From the human T2T-CHM13v2.0 reference genome, Homo sapiens: a stretch of 64,000 nt of DNA. The stretch is taken from NCBI RefSeq assembly GCF_009914755.1, contig NC_060927.1; one strand, 5' to 3'. This document shows, one piece after another, positions 16,214 through 58,760 of the stretch. The stretch's first letter is position 1, and each line of letters opens with the position of its first letter. Both the position numbers and the translations under genes were made by a program. The notes below the pieces were generated by a model. The model was not told the DNA's origin, made no database searches, and was given only the letters and a program-made list of their open reading frames with translations.

Positions 16214-17468
16214 ATCATTGGTTCTGGGTCCCAAGGCAGTTCCCAGGGTCTTGTTTGTTGATTTTCAGGATGTGGCTGCATGTACTGGACATTTCTCAGC
16301 AGATCCTGCATACAGAATGATTGATTCTGGGGCTTTCTGGATGTTCTACTCTTTTTAGGTCCACTTTGGGAAAAAAAGGGAAGCTACTACTTTCACATGA
16401 AGTGAAAGTAGCCTGCATTTGCAGGGAAGCCATGTCTAGAAAAAGCATAATCAAAATGATGTCCTTGGAGGAAGCACCTGGCTGTTTACAACAAGTGAAA
16501 TCCTTGTCTTCCAATTAGAGGGGCAGCTGGAGTCTCATGTGTGCATTCAGGTTGCAAAGAGATGAGCCACTATTAGATGAGCCACCACTAACAGAACTGC
16601 TGGGATGATGTAAAGTAATAAATTACACCACTCATGTAAGTATGATAGCATCAATGTAAGCATGTAGGAAATTTTGTTTTAATTCTAGATTTAGGTATCA
16701 ACTATAAAACCCTAGAATCTATGGCAAGTAGGAAATGAGGAGAGTATATTTTATCCCACATCTCATCTTACAATGAGGTGAGGCCTGCAGAAGCAACAGT
16801 GACTAGCCAGGAGATGCTGGCGAGTCATAATGTAACTAAACAATAACATAAACGCTAGAATTCCCAACTGTTCTTTTAGTACCATAGTATTGATTTTTGT
16901 AATTCGGTGAGTTTTGACCACTTACTTAAGATTCCAGGCAGCCCTCCTGTTGTTGTTGCTGCTCTCCTTTATGCCAGCATTTGTCACACTTGCTTGATTT
17001 GATTCCCTGCCTCCTGCCTTTATTTTATTTTATTTTTTAAAGCTGAAAAAAATGAGGGTTGCTTGTATTCAGGCCACGGTTACCACCAGTTGGCTTTATT
17101 TCTTTGGTCAATATCCTCTCTTCCATGGATAGAAATATGAATAAGAATAATCCTTGTACAAAGAAAACAAAAGTGCTAGCCTACTTTGTATGGAGGCCCA
17201 TTTTCCAACAGTTTTGTTTTATCTAGTCAGTGAATTCCTCAGATGTATTACTCGAGATGCAAGGAATACATTGGGAAAAACACCCCAGAAAAGTAGTAGC
17301 TTCCCTTTTTTTCCCAAAGTGGACCTAAAAAGAGTAGAACATCCAGAAAGCCCCAGAATCAATCATTCTGTATGCTGGATCTGCTGAGAAATGTCCAGTA
17401 CATGCAGCCACATCCTGAAATCAACAAACAAGACCCTGAGAACTGCCTTGGGACCCAGAACAAATGAT
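16214..17468. repeat. Inverted repeat: arms 16214-16393 and 17290-17468, 896-bp spacer
   Basis: Manual alignment shows 3 substitutions and 1 indel over 180 bp. ORFs on opposite strands share the peptide SSSFPFFPKVDLKRVEHPESPRINHSVC. Confidence 0.97.
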
Positions 17469-29757: not shown

Positions 29758-31461
29758 AAAGGACTGCTTTCTCTAGCCTTTTCCTTCACTTCCACATGTC
29801 TCAGATTGGAAGACCTGTGTGAGAACTCGGATGGGAAGAGAATCTCATTTCGTAAGTGTGGAACCACAGACAAAGAGTTGATGTTCTTAAAAGGAAGTTT
29901 CCATTCAGGCTATATTAGAACCTGCCTGGCAAGGAGTTATCTGTCTGGTAAACCACACTATCTCCACCCTTGTTCCTAGATACACCCCTCATTGTCTCCC
30001 CAATAGATAAAATCATGCCAACCTTGACAGTCTGCCTCCCTCAGGCTCCTCTTGTCTTCCACTCCAGGCTGGCTCATTTCCATTATGTCAGTGTATTTCC
30101 TGGTTATAGGCCCCCTTTATCTTTCTCATTGTTTCAATTTCCACATTTGGCCTTAATTTCTATGATACCTTAGTGTAGCATTCAAATGTTTAAATTCCAG
30201 TTTAGTTCTTAATTAAGATCATGTATATCAAGGTCAATGTTGTTGATTTATGTTAATTTGAATAAGAAACATTTCCTTTGCCCCTTGCTCCAGATTTCTA
30301 GAGTGGCTGGGCCGAGAAACTTTACTTCCTGTTCACCTAGGTAGGTATCTTGCTTTGGGCAAATCAGGATTCTTGAATATAATCACTCTGTGGTGAATCA
30401 GACCTGTGAAACTTAAAGAACTTATCTGTTCCCTAAAGAGGAAGAATTAAGAAATATCAGGTGGATGGATAAAGACTTAGCCTTGCCAGAAGTTTTGCCC
30501 CACACCTTGCTTGGGTCTGAAACTTGGTTGGTACATAGTATAACAGTAACTCTATCACTCATAGGTTAAAGAGCACAGAAGTCTGTCATTTTCTCTTGGG
30601 TACCTGGCACTTGCAAGGGACATCACTGATAAAATTCATCCACTCTGTTTTGAATATATCAAGTGAAAAGCACTTACATTGCTTTTTCAGGTCTGGAGAA
30701 TGATGACCTTAGAATGGGCCCTTGTTCAAGACAATTCCAAGTCCTCCCTTAGCAAGAAAGTTAGCTTGGAAATTAGGAAATAAATATTTGACCTGTCGAA
30801 TCATTTTAAATTAACCTGAATAGAAATGCATATTGTGTTCCTTCCTCATTACCATCAGAATCAAATCATTTTAGAGACAGCTAAGGCTTCGTGGAAAGAG
30901 GATCTTTATTGCCTGTAAAATAAAGAGGATCTTTATTGCCTTTATTGGGACTGGATGCCAGTCCCAAGTCTCTTGGCTGCAAGGACTGTGACATCAAGAA
31001 AGCCATTGAATTGTTCTTGGCCTCACTTCTCACCTGTCAAGTGAGAACATTAGACTAGATGATCTTAAGGCCTTTTGGTCATCACATAGTTTGATCATCT
31101 ACTCTAATCCCATGGTTTCTTGGGTGAAGAAACAAAGGCCTGCAAAGTTACTTCCTAAGATCCCACAGCAAGTGTGAGGCTGGTCTCTGGTTCTCCGTCA
31201 TGCTCTGTCTACTTCAGGAAACTTCATTGTTCACTTAGAGGTTAAGCTTGAACCAAGTAAAAATACCCAGATGGATAGCTGATTGTCTGTTCTTCCCATA
31301 ATGTCATTTTGTCTGCTCATATATTGAGGTTGTTGGCCAAACACCTAAAATCCATAGGTTACCTGTTAATTTTTTGCCTCCTTAATATAGCCGGCCAGTA
31401 ATTCAGGTCAGATACCTCTCTGGCATAAAGTCCCCAATGACCTCCTATTTAAAACAAAACA

Positions 31462-31770
31462 GGCTGGGCACAGTGGCTCACGCCTGTAATTCCAGCACTT
31501 TGGGAGGCTGAGATGGGTGGGTCACTTGAGGCCAGGAGTTCAAGAACAGCCTGGCCAACATGGTGAAACCCTGTCTACCAAAAATACAAAAATTAATTGG
31601 GTGTGCTGTTGTGCACCTGTAATCCCGGCTATTCAGGAGGCTGAGGCACAAGAATCGCTTCAATCTGGGAGACAGGGGCTGCAGTGAGCATCGAGATCGT
31701 ACCACTGCACTCCAGCCTGGGTGACACAGCAAGACTCCGCACCCACACCCCCCCCCCCAAAAAAAAATAA
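31462..31770 (+). mobile_element. AluS (Sz/Sx-like)
   Basis: Full Alu. Degenerate TSD aaac(a/g)aaaca. Confidence 0.92.
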
Positions 31771-32074
31771 ACGAAACACTAAATTAGTTCTTTGCTGGTG
31801 AAAATGCATGGTAACAAAAGAAAAAGCAGTAGCTGGGATGCAGAGTTAAATTTGCTCAAATATTTTCCATTAAAACAATAACTACCATAAACCCAGAGTA
31901 GCTGCTCTGGTTGGAGGCCAACTTTCAAGTGTTGGAGCATCACTCACGGACAGGAAGCAGAGCCTGACTTTCCTGGGAAGGCTTCTTTTAGCTGGGGCAA
32001 ACCTAGGGACTTTCATTCTCCTTTAGCCTTTCATTCAATGAAAAAGGCCAAGAATGCCAAGGAAAGGAAACTTG

Positions 32075-32262
32075 TTGATTGTCTATTATATACCAGGCAT
32101 GCTAAGTATTTTATATATAGTGGCTCATTTAATTCTGTAACCACCCTGTGAATAGATAGGTATTATTTCCATATTACAGATCAATAAAAGTTGTGTAGCT
32201 TGTCTAGGGCTACACAATAAGTGATCAGGGATTTTACTTAGCTCTAAAATCTGATTACTTTC
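32075..32262 (-). mobile_element. MIR abutting the long hairpin
   Basis: tataccaggcatgctaag...ctcatttaattctgtaaccaccctgtga...ccatattacagat. Confidence 0.7.
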
Positions 32263-32751
32263 TAAATGTATTATTTGCAAAAAAAGTCCTTTAATATTTT
32301 TGCTTTTAGTCTTCAAAAGATCGCTGATGCAGGTTAACAGCCTCTGCTTGTTAACAAAATTTACTCAATTACCGTATCCACCTTTCATTTTAGGCCGTAA
32401 TTTATGTTGGTGCTGACAGAGTGATATCAGGTGTCCTCAAATCCAGTGGAAACAAAATGAAATCACCGGGCTCTACATATTATCTGCTATTGACTATTAG
32501 TGGAAAGTAATCAGATTTTAGACAATAGCAGATAATATGTAGAGCCCGGTGATTTCATTTTGTTTCCACTGGATTTGAGGACACCTGATATCACTCTGTC
32601 AGCACCAACATAAATTACGGCCTAAAATGAAAGGTGGATACGGTAATTGAGTAAATTTTGTTAACAAGCAGAGGCTGTTAACCTGCATCAGCGATCTTTT
32701 GAAGACTAAAAGCAAAAATATTAAAGGACTTTTTTGCAAATAATACATTTA
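32263..32751. repeat. Near-perfect 230-bp inverted repeat with a 30-nt spacer (arms 32263-32492 and 32523-32751)
   Basis: Base-by-base reverse complement is identical except A7 versus T6. Confidence 0.99.
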
Positions 32752-32963
32752 CATACATATCCACTAATCGGCATTGTTGGTGAGTGGCAAAAGGTGTGTG
32801 AATCTTAAGTCAAATTTAACTTTCAGAAGTGGTGCTTGCACTTTTTGGGTAAAATACAGTGCTATCATTTTGGTTTTTAAGAAATCCTGTTGTTTGGGCT
32901 TGTGGTTCTGTCTTTTATCCTTTGGGTAGATGAAGGGATGACATTTGCATTCAGTGTCCCTCC

Positions 32964-33484
32964 TGTTCCAGTTAATTGGTGCTGCATAACAAACCACTCC
33001 AAAACTTAATGTCAGCAACAACCATGTGTATTTGACTCATGAATCTGCAATCTGGCCAGGGCTCAGCAGGGACAACTCATCTCTGCTCGCCTCAGCATCA
33101 GCTGGGTTGGCCTAGAGGCTGTGGGTTAGAATCATCTGAAGCTAGCCCACTTACATGTCTGGAGCCTAGCTGGGAAGACAGACAGCTGGGCTCCTCAGGC
33201 ATCTCTGTTTGTGGTCTCTCCAGCATGATAGCTTCAGGGTAGACAGACTTCTGTACCAGTTCACTGCTCAGCACATGACCCAAGAGAAAAAAAAGCAGGA
33301 ACCTTTCATGATCTACCTTAGGAAATCAGACAGCATCACTCCACTATGTTCTATTAAACTGAAGCAGTTACAAAGGCCACTTAGGTTCCATGGGAGTAGA
33401 AATAGATTCCATCTCTTGATAGGGAAGTGAAAAGTTTCTCACAATCTTGCAGTGGCCACTATTGGAAGATATAGACTGCTACAC
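32964..33484 (-). mobile_element. MLT1H-type MaLR solo LTR
   Basis: tgctgcataacaaaccactccaaaacttaatg...ctcatgaatctgcaatctggccagggctcagc. Confidence 0.75.
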
Positions 33485-34016
33485 AGATAAACGAGATTGC
33501 AGGTAATGTGCTGGTGCCCAAACCAGATGCATCTCTGGGCCTTTCTCTTCAGACCAAGGGAGCATATTGGCATTAAAATGGAATATAATCTATCCATTAT
33601 AATTTAACTGACATAACTTATACTTTTCAAGAAAATTATCTGAAAATTTATGACACTCTATCTACTGTTAAAAAGAAATTACTTATGAAATACCAATGGA
33701 TTAGGCTAATGTGGTAGATGGTTGAGTCTTTCCCTAAATTTTTCATCATTTTTGAGCTGGTGTCTGTTTAGTGTTCCTGAATTGTCATCAGGTTTCTGCT
33801 TTTCTACCTTGTGTGCAGAGGTAAACAGCTGAATATTTATGTAAACAGCTTTGTATAGAAACTTTTCCGTTTAAAACTAAAAAGGGAAGGCAATTGCACT
33901 TAAGATTGAATGTTTCCTGAAGGGGTTGTTTCAGCATTTTACAGCAGCTGCTGCCTCCTCTTTTGGAGATGAAATTATTATTCAAGACACATTTCTCAAC
34001 GTTTACAAACTTAGTA

Positions 34017-36290: not shown

Positions 36291-36346
36291 TAAGGAAGAT
36301 CATATGCCATTTGTCTTTCTGTGCCTGGCCTATTCACTTAACATAA

Positions 36347-36788
<442 letters not shown>

Positions 36789-37175
36789 CAGAGTTTTCTT
36801 TTTTAAAGCTGAATACTATTCTATATATATATACAGTATAGATTATATATATATGTATAAAATCTCACATTTGTGCATTCTAGTTATCTTTTAAAAATAT
36901 ATTTCTAATATTGCATTGTAAGGGAATGTTGGTATATCAGTCCTTTGCAATTTATTGAGGTTTTCTTTATAGCTTAGTCAGTTTTCAGAGTTAATATTTC
37001 ACTAATTATTGTATTCAATATTCTATATATGTTCTATACATCTAAAAGTTAATTATGCTATTTAAATCTTTTTACTGACCTTTTTTTATCTGCTGAAGTT
37101 ATCAATTACTAGGAGAGTTGTACTGCAGTTTCTCCCTCTGGTGATGGATTTGTCTATTTCTCTTAATTGCCATGT

Positions 37176-51934: not shown

Positions 51935-53280
51935 AAATAATTGACAAATAAAAAATGTATATATTTAAGGTATACACTGTCACGTTTCAAAATGTGAATA
52001 CATTGTGAAGTGATTACCAAATCAAGCAAATTAACATCCATCACCTCATATGCTCACCTTTTCTTTGATGTATGGTGAGAACACTAAAGATCTCTTAGCA
52101 AATTTTAAGTATACAATACATTATAATTAACTATAGTTACTATGCTGTATATTTGATCACCAGAACCCATCTTATAACTGAAAGTTTGTATCCTTTGATC
52201 CAAATCCCCACATTTTTCCCAGCCACTGACAACCACCACTCTACTCTGTTTCTATGAGTTCAACTGCTTTAGACTCCACATGTAAGTGAGATCATACAGT
52301 ATTTTTCTTTCTGCACTGGCTTATTTCACTTAACATAACATCCTCTAGGTTCATCTATGTTTCAGCGAATGGCAGAATTTTCTTCTTTTTAAAGGCTGAA
52401 TAGTATTCCCTCAGGTATATGTACCAGATACACATACATAAGGGAATATATATATGTCTCAGGTACATATACATAAGGGAATACTATTTTTTACTCATTC
52501 ATGTATGTGTACCAGATACATATACATAAGGGAATATATATATATATGTCTGGTACATATACATAAAGGAATGCTATTTTTTACTCATTCATCTCTCAGT
52601 GGACACTTAGGTTGTTTTCATATCTTGGCTATTATGAATAGTGCTGCAATAAATATGGGAGTGCACATATCTCTTTGACATACTGATTTCAGTTCTTTTG
52701 GATATATACCCAGAAGTAGGAGTGCAGGATCATATGGCAGCTCTATTAGTTTTTTGAGGGAATATCCATACTGTTTTCCACAGTGGTTATACCAATTTAC
52801 AATCCCAGCAAGAGTGTACAAGGGTTCCCTTTTCTCTACACCTTCACCATCACTTGTTATCTTTTGACTTTTTGATAACAGCCTTTCTAATAGATATGAA
52901 GTGATATTTCATTATGGTTTTGATTTGCATTTCTATGATGATTAGTGATGTTGAGTACCTTTTCACATACTTTTGGACATTTCTTTGTCTTCCTTGGAAA
53001 AATACCTCCTCAGGTCCTTTGCCCATTTAAAAAAATCAGGTTATTTGGTTTTTTTTTTTTTTTTTTTTTGCAATTGAGTTGTTTGAATTTCTTATATATT
53101 TCGGATATTAGCCACCTATTAGATATATGATATCAGATATAATAGCAAATATTTTCTCCCATTCTCTAAGTTGCCTTTCCATTTGTTGATTGTTTCCCTT
53201 CCTGTGCAGAAGCCTTTTAGTTTGATGTAGCCCCACTTGATATTTTTCTTTTGTTGCCTGTGCTTTTGAAGTCATAGTCA
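51935..53280 (-). mobile_element. L1MA (MA7-9 class) 3' portion
   Basis: aaattaacatccatcacctcata...; ORF 52618-52821 gives ELPYDPALLLLGIYPKE. Confidence 0.85.
52398..52592. repeat. Compound tandem plus inverted expansion (~88-bp unit x2) in the L1MA
   Basis: Units at 52415-52502 and 52503-52592. 52399-52425 is inverted relative to 52462-52488. Confidence 0.85.
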
Positions 53281-56757: not shown

Positions 56758-57588
<831 letters not shown>

Positions 57589-58760
57589 TTATTTTAACTT
57601 TCATTTTAGGTTTGGAGGTACATGTGCAGGTTTGTTATATAAGTAAACTCATGACTAGGAGGTTCAGTATAGACACTATTTCATCACCTGGGTACTTTTT
57701 TCCTGAACCTCTCCCCACTTCCACTTTCCTCTCAAGTAGTCCCCAGTGTCTGTTGTTCCCCTCTTTGTGTCCGTGTGTTCTTATTATTTAGCTCCTATTT
57801 ATAAGTGAGAACATGTGGTATTTGGTTTTCTGATCTTGCATTCGTTTGGTAAGGATAATGGCCTCCAGTTCCATCTGTGTTCCTGGAAAAGAAGTGATCT
57901 CATTCTTTTCTATGGCTGCATAGTATTCCATGGTGTGTATATATACCACATTTCCTTTATCCAGCCTATTGTTGTTGGCTATCTAGGTTGATTCCATGTC
58001 TTTGCTATTGTGAGTAGTGCTGCAATAAACATAATGTGTGCATGTGTTTTTAAGGTAGAATGATTTATATTCTTCTGGGTATATACCCAGTAGTGGGATT
58101 GCTGGGTCGAATGGTAGTTCTGTTTTTAGTTTTTTGAGGAATTACCACATCCACAGTGGCTGAACTAATTTACACTCCCACCAGCAGAGTACAAGTGTTT
58201 CCTTTTCTTGGCAGCCTCACCAGCATCTGTTATTGTTTGAGTTTTTAATAATAGCCATTCTGACTGATATGAGATGGTATCTCATTTTGATTTTGATTTG
58301 CATTTCTCTAATGATCAGTGATATTGAGCATTTCTTCATATGCTTTTTGGCCACATGTATATCTTCTTTTGAAAAGGGCCTGTTCATATCCTTTGCCTGC
58401 TTTTCAATGGGTTTGTTTTTTGCTTGTACATTTGTTTCAGTAGATTCTGGATATTAGACCTTTGTCAGATGTATAGTTTGCAGATATTTTCTCCCGTTCT
58501 GTGGGTTGTCTGTTTATTCTGTTGATGGTTTCTTTTGCTGTGCAAAAGCTCTTCAGTTTAATTAGGTCCCATTTATCAATTTTTGCTGAAATTGCTTTTG
58601 GCATTTTTGTTATGAAATTTTTGCCAGATTCTATATCCAAAATATTATTTCCTAGGTAATCTTACAGAGTTTTTATAGCTTTAGGTTTCACATTTAGGTC
58701 TTTAATCCATCTTGAGTTTATTTTTGTATAATACGTAAGGTGAGGGTCCAGTTTCAATCT
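57589..58760 (-). mobile_element. Older L1PA13-16-class 3' portion (T-tail continues at ~56739-56756)
   Basis: Minus-strand L1 3' UTR and ORF2 C-terminus (ORF 58437-58640). Confidence 0.88.

What the first reader, a model, noticed from the sequence alone, without database searches (positions are those of the whole stretch)
32263..32751. 230-bp essentially perfect fold-back in non-repeat DNA: candidate long-dsRNA or cruciform element
Seen: the two arms are exact reverse complements apart from one homopolymer indel (A7/T6). All 4 CpGs are intact in both arms, the spacer is 30 nt, and I recognise no transposon in the arms. Established: perfect inverted repeats this long with tiny spacers are rare and unstable in mammalian genomes. 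If transcribed, they form duplexes that ADAR edits and that Dicer, PKR or MDA5 can sense. Inference: either this is a very recent (possibly lineage-specific or polymorphic) duplication, or arm-to-arm gene conversion keeps it homogeneous. It could be an hp-siRNA source or an intronic dsRNA switch, usable on either strand.
Basis: partly seen in the sequence, partly recalled or inferred. Interest (0 to 1): 0.82.

Follow-up and report, generated by a model that had tools for sequence, protein, structure and literature searches.

The report
One-step inverted duplication scar in TMEM108
A 230-base near-perfect fold-back in an intron of human TMEM108 is real and found nowhere else in this genome, and its layout points to a single DNA copying error rather than a transposon or a designed RNA element.

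Summary
The arms are 32263-32492 and 32523-32751, 230 and 229 nt, with 0 substitutions and one A7/T6 length difference. Each arm has 4 CpGs and the spacer is 30 nt. The fold is far beyond chance, with z = -49 as RNA and -61 as DNA. It is the only long high-identity palindrome in 264 kb. The arm occurs nowhere else in the T2T-CHM13 genome, whereas a repeat control gave 3532 candidates.

The + strand order is therefore P, rc(S), rc(Q), rc(P), S. That is the output of one "3-1-4-2" template switch, or equally an inversion with staggered breaks. This model rebuilds all 509 nt with 0 mismatches and 1 gap.

Best reading: a young, probably neutral mutational scar. It adds a 230-bp hairpin to TMEM108 pre-mRNA and a fragile motif to the DNA. 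Zero substitutions allow an age up to roughly 6-12 My, so gene conversion is not needed. No tool here could test presence in apes or other humans, transcription, editing or small RNAs. This is a new and unusually large member of a known kind, of modest interest.

The parts
32243..32262 (+). P: 20 nt directly left of the left arm. Under the model it is ancestral and in place. Its exact reverse complement sits in the spacer.
   Evidence: I3: 20 nt, 100% complementary to 32503-32522
32263..32492 (+). Left arm (230 nt, carries the A7 run) = rc(S). Under the model it is the first part of the newly copied fragment F2.
   Evidence: 0 substitutions, 1 indel against the right arm
32493..32502 (+). 10 nt = rc(Q), the only part present once. 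Under the model it is an inverted 10-bp ancestral spacer.
   Evidence: Its 7 nt plus 2 nt of P match 32760-32768 on the other strand (9-mer), which is not significant on its own. About 0.3 such matches are expected in +/-800 bp (my estimate), and one search also found two 8-mers.
32503..32522 (+). rc(P): the inverted copy of 32243-32262 and the last part of F2. It abuts the right arm with no filler.
   Evidence: I3
32523..32751 (+). Right arm S (229 nt, carries the T6 run). Under the model it is ancestral and in place.

Best explanation
The fold-back is the scar of one DNA rearrangement in unique intronic sequence of TMEM108. The ancestral stretch was about 260 bp: P (32243-32262), then Q (the reverse complement of 32493-32502), then S (32523-32751). 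During replication or break repair the growing strand copied up to the end of P. It then jumped to the opposite strand at the far end of S and copied backwards through S, Q and P. That made today's 32263-32522. It then jumped back to the start of S and carried on. This is the '3-1-4-2' event of the four-point template-switch model. Two staggered breaks followed by fill-in and inverted rejoining would leave the same footprint. The result is P, rc(S), rc(Q), rc(P), S: a 230-bp perfect inverted repeat, a nested 20-bp one, and a 10-bp inverted core, for a net gain of about 250 bp. What is shown: the architecture, the exact abutments, uniqueness in the genome and the absence of substitutions. What is inferred: the ancestral state, the mechanism, a young age (most likely under about 6-12 My) and the absence of a selected function. 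The expected consequences are passive. The sense pre-mRNA of TMEM108 would carry a 230-bp perfect hairpin, a likely ADAR substrate that is removed with the intron. The DNA carries a hairpin- or cruciform-prone motif with a 30-bp spacer, which may be polymorphic or prone to deletion.
For:: the arms, plus a second 20-nt exact inverted pair whose members each directly abut one arm (32262|32263 and 32522|32523); the sequence rebuilt from coordinates as P + rc(P Q S) + S matches the observed 509 nt with 0 mismatches and 1 gap column, the A7/T6 run. Q is defined from the data, so the independent support is 249 nt plus the two exact abutments; the arm is single-locus (1 candidate, 2 matches, both the arms) while a masked repeat control gave 3532 candidates and 57 scored matches; no target-site duplication in the flanks. 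[quoted passage not shown] PMC10710096 (passages): template switches create perfect hairpin stems in a single event, are enriched in introns, and produced over 6,000 hairpins in primates. PMC1885836 (passages): staggered breaks give inversions flanked by inverted duplications of unique sequence, with a median of 321 bp in D. yakuba.
Against: No outgroup or second human assembly could be examined, so the ancestral P-Q-S state is only predicted. The copied fragment (260 nt) is far longer than the short events the four-point studies were built to find. I did not see their length distribution, which is in a supplementary figure. I see essentially no usable microhomology at either switch point: 0 nt at 32262|32263, and a TAG shared one base off at 32522|32523. 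That is not what a primed switch would most simply predict and fits end joining as well. A circular or multi-switch route gives the same sequence. Lack of function is inferred from absence of evidence only. Expression, editing and small-RNA data were not available.
Confidence: 0.68

Rival explanations
1. Same kind of scar, different route. The ancestral locus carried the left copy (32243-32502) followed directly by 32752 onward. The inverted copy 32503-32751 was inserted later. This could have happened by two successive fold-back switches, or by re-insertion of a roughly 250-bp circle (microDNA-sized) made from 32243-32492 and opened at 32262|32263.
For: 32503-32751 is exactly the reverse complement of a circular permutation of 32243-32492. 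The 7-9-nt inverted match between 32496-32504 and 32760-32768 would then be a small pre-existing inverted repeat at the insertion point.
Against: It needs three new junctions or more than two switches, where the 3-1-4-2 model needs two. The exact abutment at 32262|32263 then needs a special explanation. The 9-mer match is within chance expectation: about 0.3 are expected in +/-800 bp (my estimate), and two 8-mers were also found.
Confidence: 0.14
2. An older inverted repeat kept identical by arm-to-arm gene conversion or by selection because it works as an RNA element. Candidate roles are an intronic dsRNA regulator of TMEM108 or a source of hairpin-derived small RNAs.
For: The stem is perfect and all CpGs are intact in both arms. 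It lies on the sense strand of a transcribed gene, according to the hub annotation. Very stable folds are predicted.
Against: Zero substitutions in 249 pairs is expected for any age below a few My and is not unusual up to about 6-12 My (recalled rates). Rfam gives no family above its threshold; the best hit is MIR4208 at 54.5 bits against a gathering score of 140. The interleaved P/rc(P) pair is a by-product of a copying event and has no evident RNA role. A 230-bp perfect stem is not a Drosha-type substrate (recalled). Intronic dsRNA is removed by splicing (PMC11838218 section 10). No paper links TMEM108 with an inverted repeat (0 papers) or with editing at this site (1 paper on an unrelated topic).
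Confidence: 0.07
3. A fold-back transposon or MITE with 230-bp terminal inverted repeats.
For: It has the general shape of long terminal inverted repeats with a short core. The arms begin and end with TA.
Against: The arm is single-locus in the whole genome while the control repeat was detected massively. No target-site duplication abuts either 32263/32751 or 32243/32751. The core is a copy of the flank rather than foreign sequence.
Confidence: 0.02
4. An assembly or library artefact in T2T-CHM13, such as a chimeric fold-back read carried into the consensus.
For: Polymerase template switching in vitro can make inverted chimeras (recalled). Only one assembly was available to me.
Against: The structure lies inside a 201-Mb contig with normal unique flanks. 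It has one homopolymer difference between the arms and an ordered P/Q/S architecture typical of in vivo events. I could not inspect reads.
Confidence: 0.03

Closest known systems
Template-switch mutations, four-point model type 3-1-4-2 (Loytynoja & Goldman 2017, PMC5453318; Monttinen et al. 2023, PMC10710096)
   Same: One event copies a contiguous stretch in reverse complement so that it overlaps both switch points. This gives two interleaved inverted repeats around an inverted spacer and a perfect hairpin in unique, often intronic DNA.
   Different: The copied fragment here is 260 nt and the stem is 230 bp. The published scans were built for short clusters, with filters of at least 10-14 bp and switch points within 30 bp of the cluster. 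The stem is far longer than a miRNA hairpin. The ancestral state is not yet observed.
Inversions with inverted duplications from staggered breaks (Ranz et al. 2007, PMC1885836)
   Same: The footprint is identical: the inverted middle is flanked by inverted duplicates of formerly unique sequence at both ends. The duplication sizes are in the same range (46 bp to 1.9 kb, median 321 bp).
   Different: There the inverted middle is kilobases to megabases long. Here it is 10 bp, so the two duplications form a near-contiguous palindrome.
PATRRs (palindromic AT-rich repeats) of human chromosomes 11, 22, 17, 8 and 3p14
   Same: A near-perfect palindrome several hundred bp long, located in an intron, with potential for cruciform formation and breakage.
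   Different: PATRRs are described as over 90% AT (PMC7999016 passages) and essentially spacerless. This element is 65% AT with a 30-bp spacer. No translocation is known here.
Closely spaced inverted Alu pairs and long intronic dsRNAs edited by ADAR
   Same: An intramolecular duplex of about 230-300 bp in a pre-mRNA. Such duplexes are the expected substrate class for A-to-I hyper-editing.
   Different: This one is non-repeat, locus-specific and perfectly paired, whereas Alu pairs are typically mismatched. It is shorter than the 300-bp threshold used for candidate MDA5 ligands in PMC11838218 section 10.

Membership tests
Template-switch mutation, type 3-1-4-2 | The inserted fragment is the reverse complement of a contiguous nearby stretch. 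| tested here: met
   P + rc(P Q S) + S reproduces 32243-32751 with 0 mismatches and 1 gap. Q is defined from the data, so the independent support is 249 nt.
Template-switch mutation, type 3-1-4-2 | The copied fragment overlaps both point 1 and point 4, giving two inverted repeats around an inverted spacer. | tested here: met
   the 230-nt and 20-nt inverted pairs are interleaved, and each abuts the other with no filler.
Template-switch mutation, type 3-1-4-2 | The ancestral (outgroup) sequence shows the unrearranged P-Q-S arrangement. | not testable with these tools
   No primate genome or second human genome is held. The arm has no paralogue that could serve as a proxy.
PATRR | Over 90% AT (as stated in PMC7999016). 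| tested here: not met
   GC is 34.8%, so AT is about 65%.
PATRR | A near-perfect palindrome of several hundred bp with little or no spacer. | tested here: inconclusive
   The element spans 489 bp with 230-bp arms and a 30-bp spacer.
Fold-back transposon / MITE | Multiple copies in the genome. | tested here: not met
   only the two arms match. The control gave 3532 candidates.
Fold-back transposon / MITE | A target-site duplication flanking the element. | tested here: not met
   The flanks printed share no abutting direct repeat.
miRNA / known structured RNA family | A match to a curated family at its gathering score. | tested here: not met
   the best hit is MIR4208 at 54.5 bits against 140. 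The other hits are also below threshold.
hpRNA / endo-siRNA locus | 21-23-nt small RNAs mapping to both arms. | not testable with these tools
   No small-RNA or RNA-seq data are available here.

The most novel reading that the evidence does not exclude
This could be an unusually large single-step 3-1-4-2 template switch in the human lineage, possibly human-specific or still polymorphic. In one generation it would have placed a 230-bp perfectly paired, non-Alu hairpin into the pre-mRNA of TMEM108 (recalled as brain-expressed). If the hairpin is transcribed and edited or diced, carriers and non-carriers would form a natural experiment. It would show how human cells handle a brand-new long perfect intronic dsRNA and how long such a palindrome survives in the germline.
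Probability: 0.12. Interest if true: 0.55.

Novelty: new member of a known kind. Interest (0 to 1): 0.33.

Why it matters
This is a clean example of how a long perfect hairpin can arise in unique DNA in one mutational step. Its internal layout lets the ancestral sequence be predicted base by base and checked against ape and pangenome assemblies. If confirmed, it would show that local template switching, or staggered-break inversion, can produce a hairpin with a 230-bp stem. It would also mark a site worth watching for deletion polymorphism and for RNA editing. On present evidence it does not point to a new biological system.

Tried and rejected
- Rfam scan of 31000-34000 on both strands at E up to 1: only sub-threshold generic hairpin hits over the palindrome, plus Alu/SRP hits at 31463-31745.
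- Transposon reading: rejected by the copy-number test with a control and by the lack of a target-site duplication.
- A multi-switch junction reading based on the 9-nt match of the spacer to 32760-32768: downgraded after one search showed two 8-mers in the same +/-800 bp. I estimate about 0.3 chance 9-mers in that span.
- A circular-intermediate reading: kept only as a rival, because the one-event model needs fewer junctions.
- PATRR membership: rejected on base composition.
- Literature: TMEM108 with 'inverted repeat' gave 0 papers. TMEM108 with 'A-to-I' gave 1 paper on an unrelated topic. The GAP-Seq paper PMC4057610 has no mention of TMEM108 or chr3 in its main text. The dsRNAscan preprint PMC11838218 has no mention of TMEM108 in its main text, and its supplementary tables were not seen.
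- The second inverted repeat at 16214-17468 was checked for the same interleaved layout and has none.

Full report
**Observation.** Reading 32100-32900, running repeat finder and making a global alignment of one arm against the reverse complement of the other all confirm the finding.
- The left arm is 32263-32492 (230 nt) and the right arm is 32523-32751 (229 nt).
- There are no substitutions. The single difference is a homopolymer run, A7 at 32279-32285 against T6 in the right arm.
- Each arm has 4 CpGs. GC is 35%, against 39% for the window.
- The spacer is 30 nt (32493-32522). The repeat finder gives 22 nt because three more pairs follow one mismatch.
- As RNA, 32243-32771 folds at -412.8 kcal/mol against -107 +/- 6 for 100 dinucleotide-preserving shuffles (z = -49).
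- As DNA, 32263-32751 folds at -281.3 kcal/mol against -45 +/- 4 (z = -60.6). None of the 100 shuffles came close in either case.

**Rarity and uniqueness.** Within the window, only one other inverted pair of at least 40 nt within 2 kb is close to perfect. I fetched the 200 kb upstream and ran a minus-strand self-BLAST over the 264 kb of contiguous sequence. Among 12 self-overlapping palindromic matches, this is the only one longer than 200 nt at high identity. The others are 33-182 nt, or 849 nt at 69% identity.

A whole-genome search of T2T-CHM13 with the left arm found one first-look candidate and two matches, which are the two arms themselves. As a control, a masked repeat stretch of the same window (36306-36866) gave 3532 candidates and 57 scored matches. 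The arms are therefore single-locus DNA. An ancient, strongly diverged repeat fragment inside them cannot be excluded by this word-based search, but that would not bear on the origin of the inverted repeat. The window lies at chr3:135842001-135906000, so the element is at chr3:135,874,263-135,874,751. According to the hub annotation, this is inside an intron of TMEM108 on the sense strand.

The repeat finder reported a second exact inverted pair. Positions 32243-32262, the 20 nt directly left of the left arm, match 32503-32522, the last 20 nt of the spacer (I3; confirmed). Call these pieces P (32243-32262), S (the right arm) and Q (the reverse complement of the remaining 10 nt, 32493-32502). 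The + strand then reads P, rc(S), rc(Q), rc(P), S, with no filler at 32262|32263 or at 32522|32523.

This is exactly what a single reverse-complement copy of a contiguous P-Q-S stretch would leave, if it were inserted after P and before S. I rebuilt P + rc(PQS) + S from coordinates and aligned it to the observed 509 nt. The result was 0 mismatches and 1 gap column, the A7/T6 run. Q is defined from the data. The independent evidence is therefore the 249 aligned positions and the two exact abutments.

**Mechanism.** The pattern matches event type "3-1-4-2" in the four-point template-switch model. The authors describe that type as converting the spacer and creating two inverted repeats. It accounted for 1% of their 794 filtered human-chimp events (PMC5453318, passages seen). 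A later study reports that such switches create perfect hairpin stems in one event, are enriched in introns, and produced over 6,000 hairpins in primates (PMC10710096, passages).

Two pairs of staggered breaks, followed by fill-in and inverted rejoining, would give the same footprint. That model was proposed for Drosophila inversions flanked by inverted duplications of unique sequence, with a median duplication of 321 bp in D. yakuba (PMC1885836, passages). The sequence alone cannot separate replication-based switching from break-and-join. I see no usable microhomology at 32262|32263 and only a TAG shared one base out of register at 32522|32523.

A less parsimonious alternative gives the same sequence. 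In it, the left copy is ancestral and the right copy was inserted, either by two successive fold-back switches or as a re-opened circle of about 250 bp. It needs three novel junctions instead of two. The two models predict opposite orientations of the single copy in an outgroup, so they can be told apart.

The 9-nt match between the junction of P and Q and 32760-32768 is not significant on its own. I estimate about 0.3 such 9-mers by chance in +/-800 bp, and one search also returned two 8-mers.

**Age.** There are no substitutions in 249 aligned positions. With recalled human rates of 0.5-1.0 x 10^-9 per site per year, the probability of zero differences falls to 50% at about 1.4-2.8 My and to 5% at about 6-12 My. 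The CpGs would shorten this slightly. The element is therefore young, but the data do not force it to be human-specific or polymorphic, and gene conversion is not needed to explain the identity. The A7/T6 difference could be slippage during the copying event or later.

**What it is not.**
- Not a transposon: it is single-copy, has no target-site duplication, and its core is a copy of the flank.
- Not a PATRR: it is 65% AT, against the more than 90% stated in the review PMC7999016 (passages).
- Not a member of any Rfam family: the best hit is MIR4208 at 54.5 bits against a gathering score of 140, and the other hits are generic hairpin matches.

**Function.** Nothing I could run bears on transcription, editing, small RNAs or phenotype. 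From established knowledge (recalled), a 230-bp perfect duplex in a pre-mRNA is a good ADAR substrate. It is not a Drosha-type hairpin, and human somatic cells process long hairpins into siRNAs poorly.

The dsRNAscan preprint (PMC11838218, section 10 read in full) reports the following:
- 2,018 of 5,134,754 predicted human dsRNAs are both longer than 300 bp and more than 96% paired.
- 88% of those are intergenic.
- Intronic dsRNAs would be removed by splicing.

The present stem is below that 300-bp mark. [quoted passage not shown] A 30-bp spacer lies between these, so some instability is plausible but not shown.

Literature searches found nothing relevant. TMEM108 with "inverted repeat" gave 0 papers. 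TMEM108 with "A-to-I" gave 1 paper on an unrelated topic. Supplementary tables of the dsRNA and palindrome catalogues were not seen and could list this locus.

**Verdict.** The most likely explanation, at about 0.68, is a young and probably neutral scar of one 3-1-4-2-type inverted copying event. It is unusually large for its class, and its hairpin-forming consequences are passive. A different rearrangement route stands at about 0.14, and a maintained functional RNA element at about 0.07. An artefact or a transposon is unlikely. It is a new, large member of a known kind, of modest interest. The decisive test is a simple alignment to ape and pangenome assemblies, with an exact prediction for the empty allele.

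Noticed in passing
window 16214-16393 and 17290-17468: A second locus-specific inverted duplication lies in the same TMEM108 intron, about 15 kb upstream. The arms are 180 nt with 3 mismatches and 1 gap (about 98% identity), separated by 896 nt. It is found only here in the whole genome. It has no interleaved second pair. It may be an older small inversion flanked by an inverted duplication.
   Followed up: partly
window 31463-31745: Two sub-threshold Metazoa_SRP matches (55.3 and 36.4 bits against a gathering score of 70) mark an Alu element about 500 bp upstream of the fold-back. It is not part of the structure.
   Followed up: no
window 57164-57994: A long diverged palindromic match (849 nt at 69% identity; arms of 203 nt at 77%) overlaps stretches that the hub lists as masked repeats. 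It is probably two old repeat copies in inverted orientation.
   Followed up: no
window 52399-52578: Short AT/TA-rich imperfect palindromes (42-nt arms at 81-86% identity, spacers of 6 and 96 nt) look like low-complexity sequence.
   Followed up: no
window 32760-32768 vs 32261-32262 + 32496-32502: A 9-nt match (TCCACTAAT) links the inferred ancestral P|Q junction with the right flank. Under the main model it would be a direct repeat bracketing S. It is within chance expectation and remains unexplained.
   Followed up: partly
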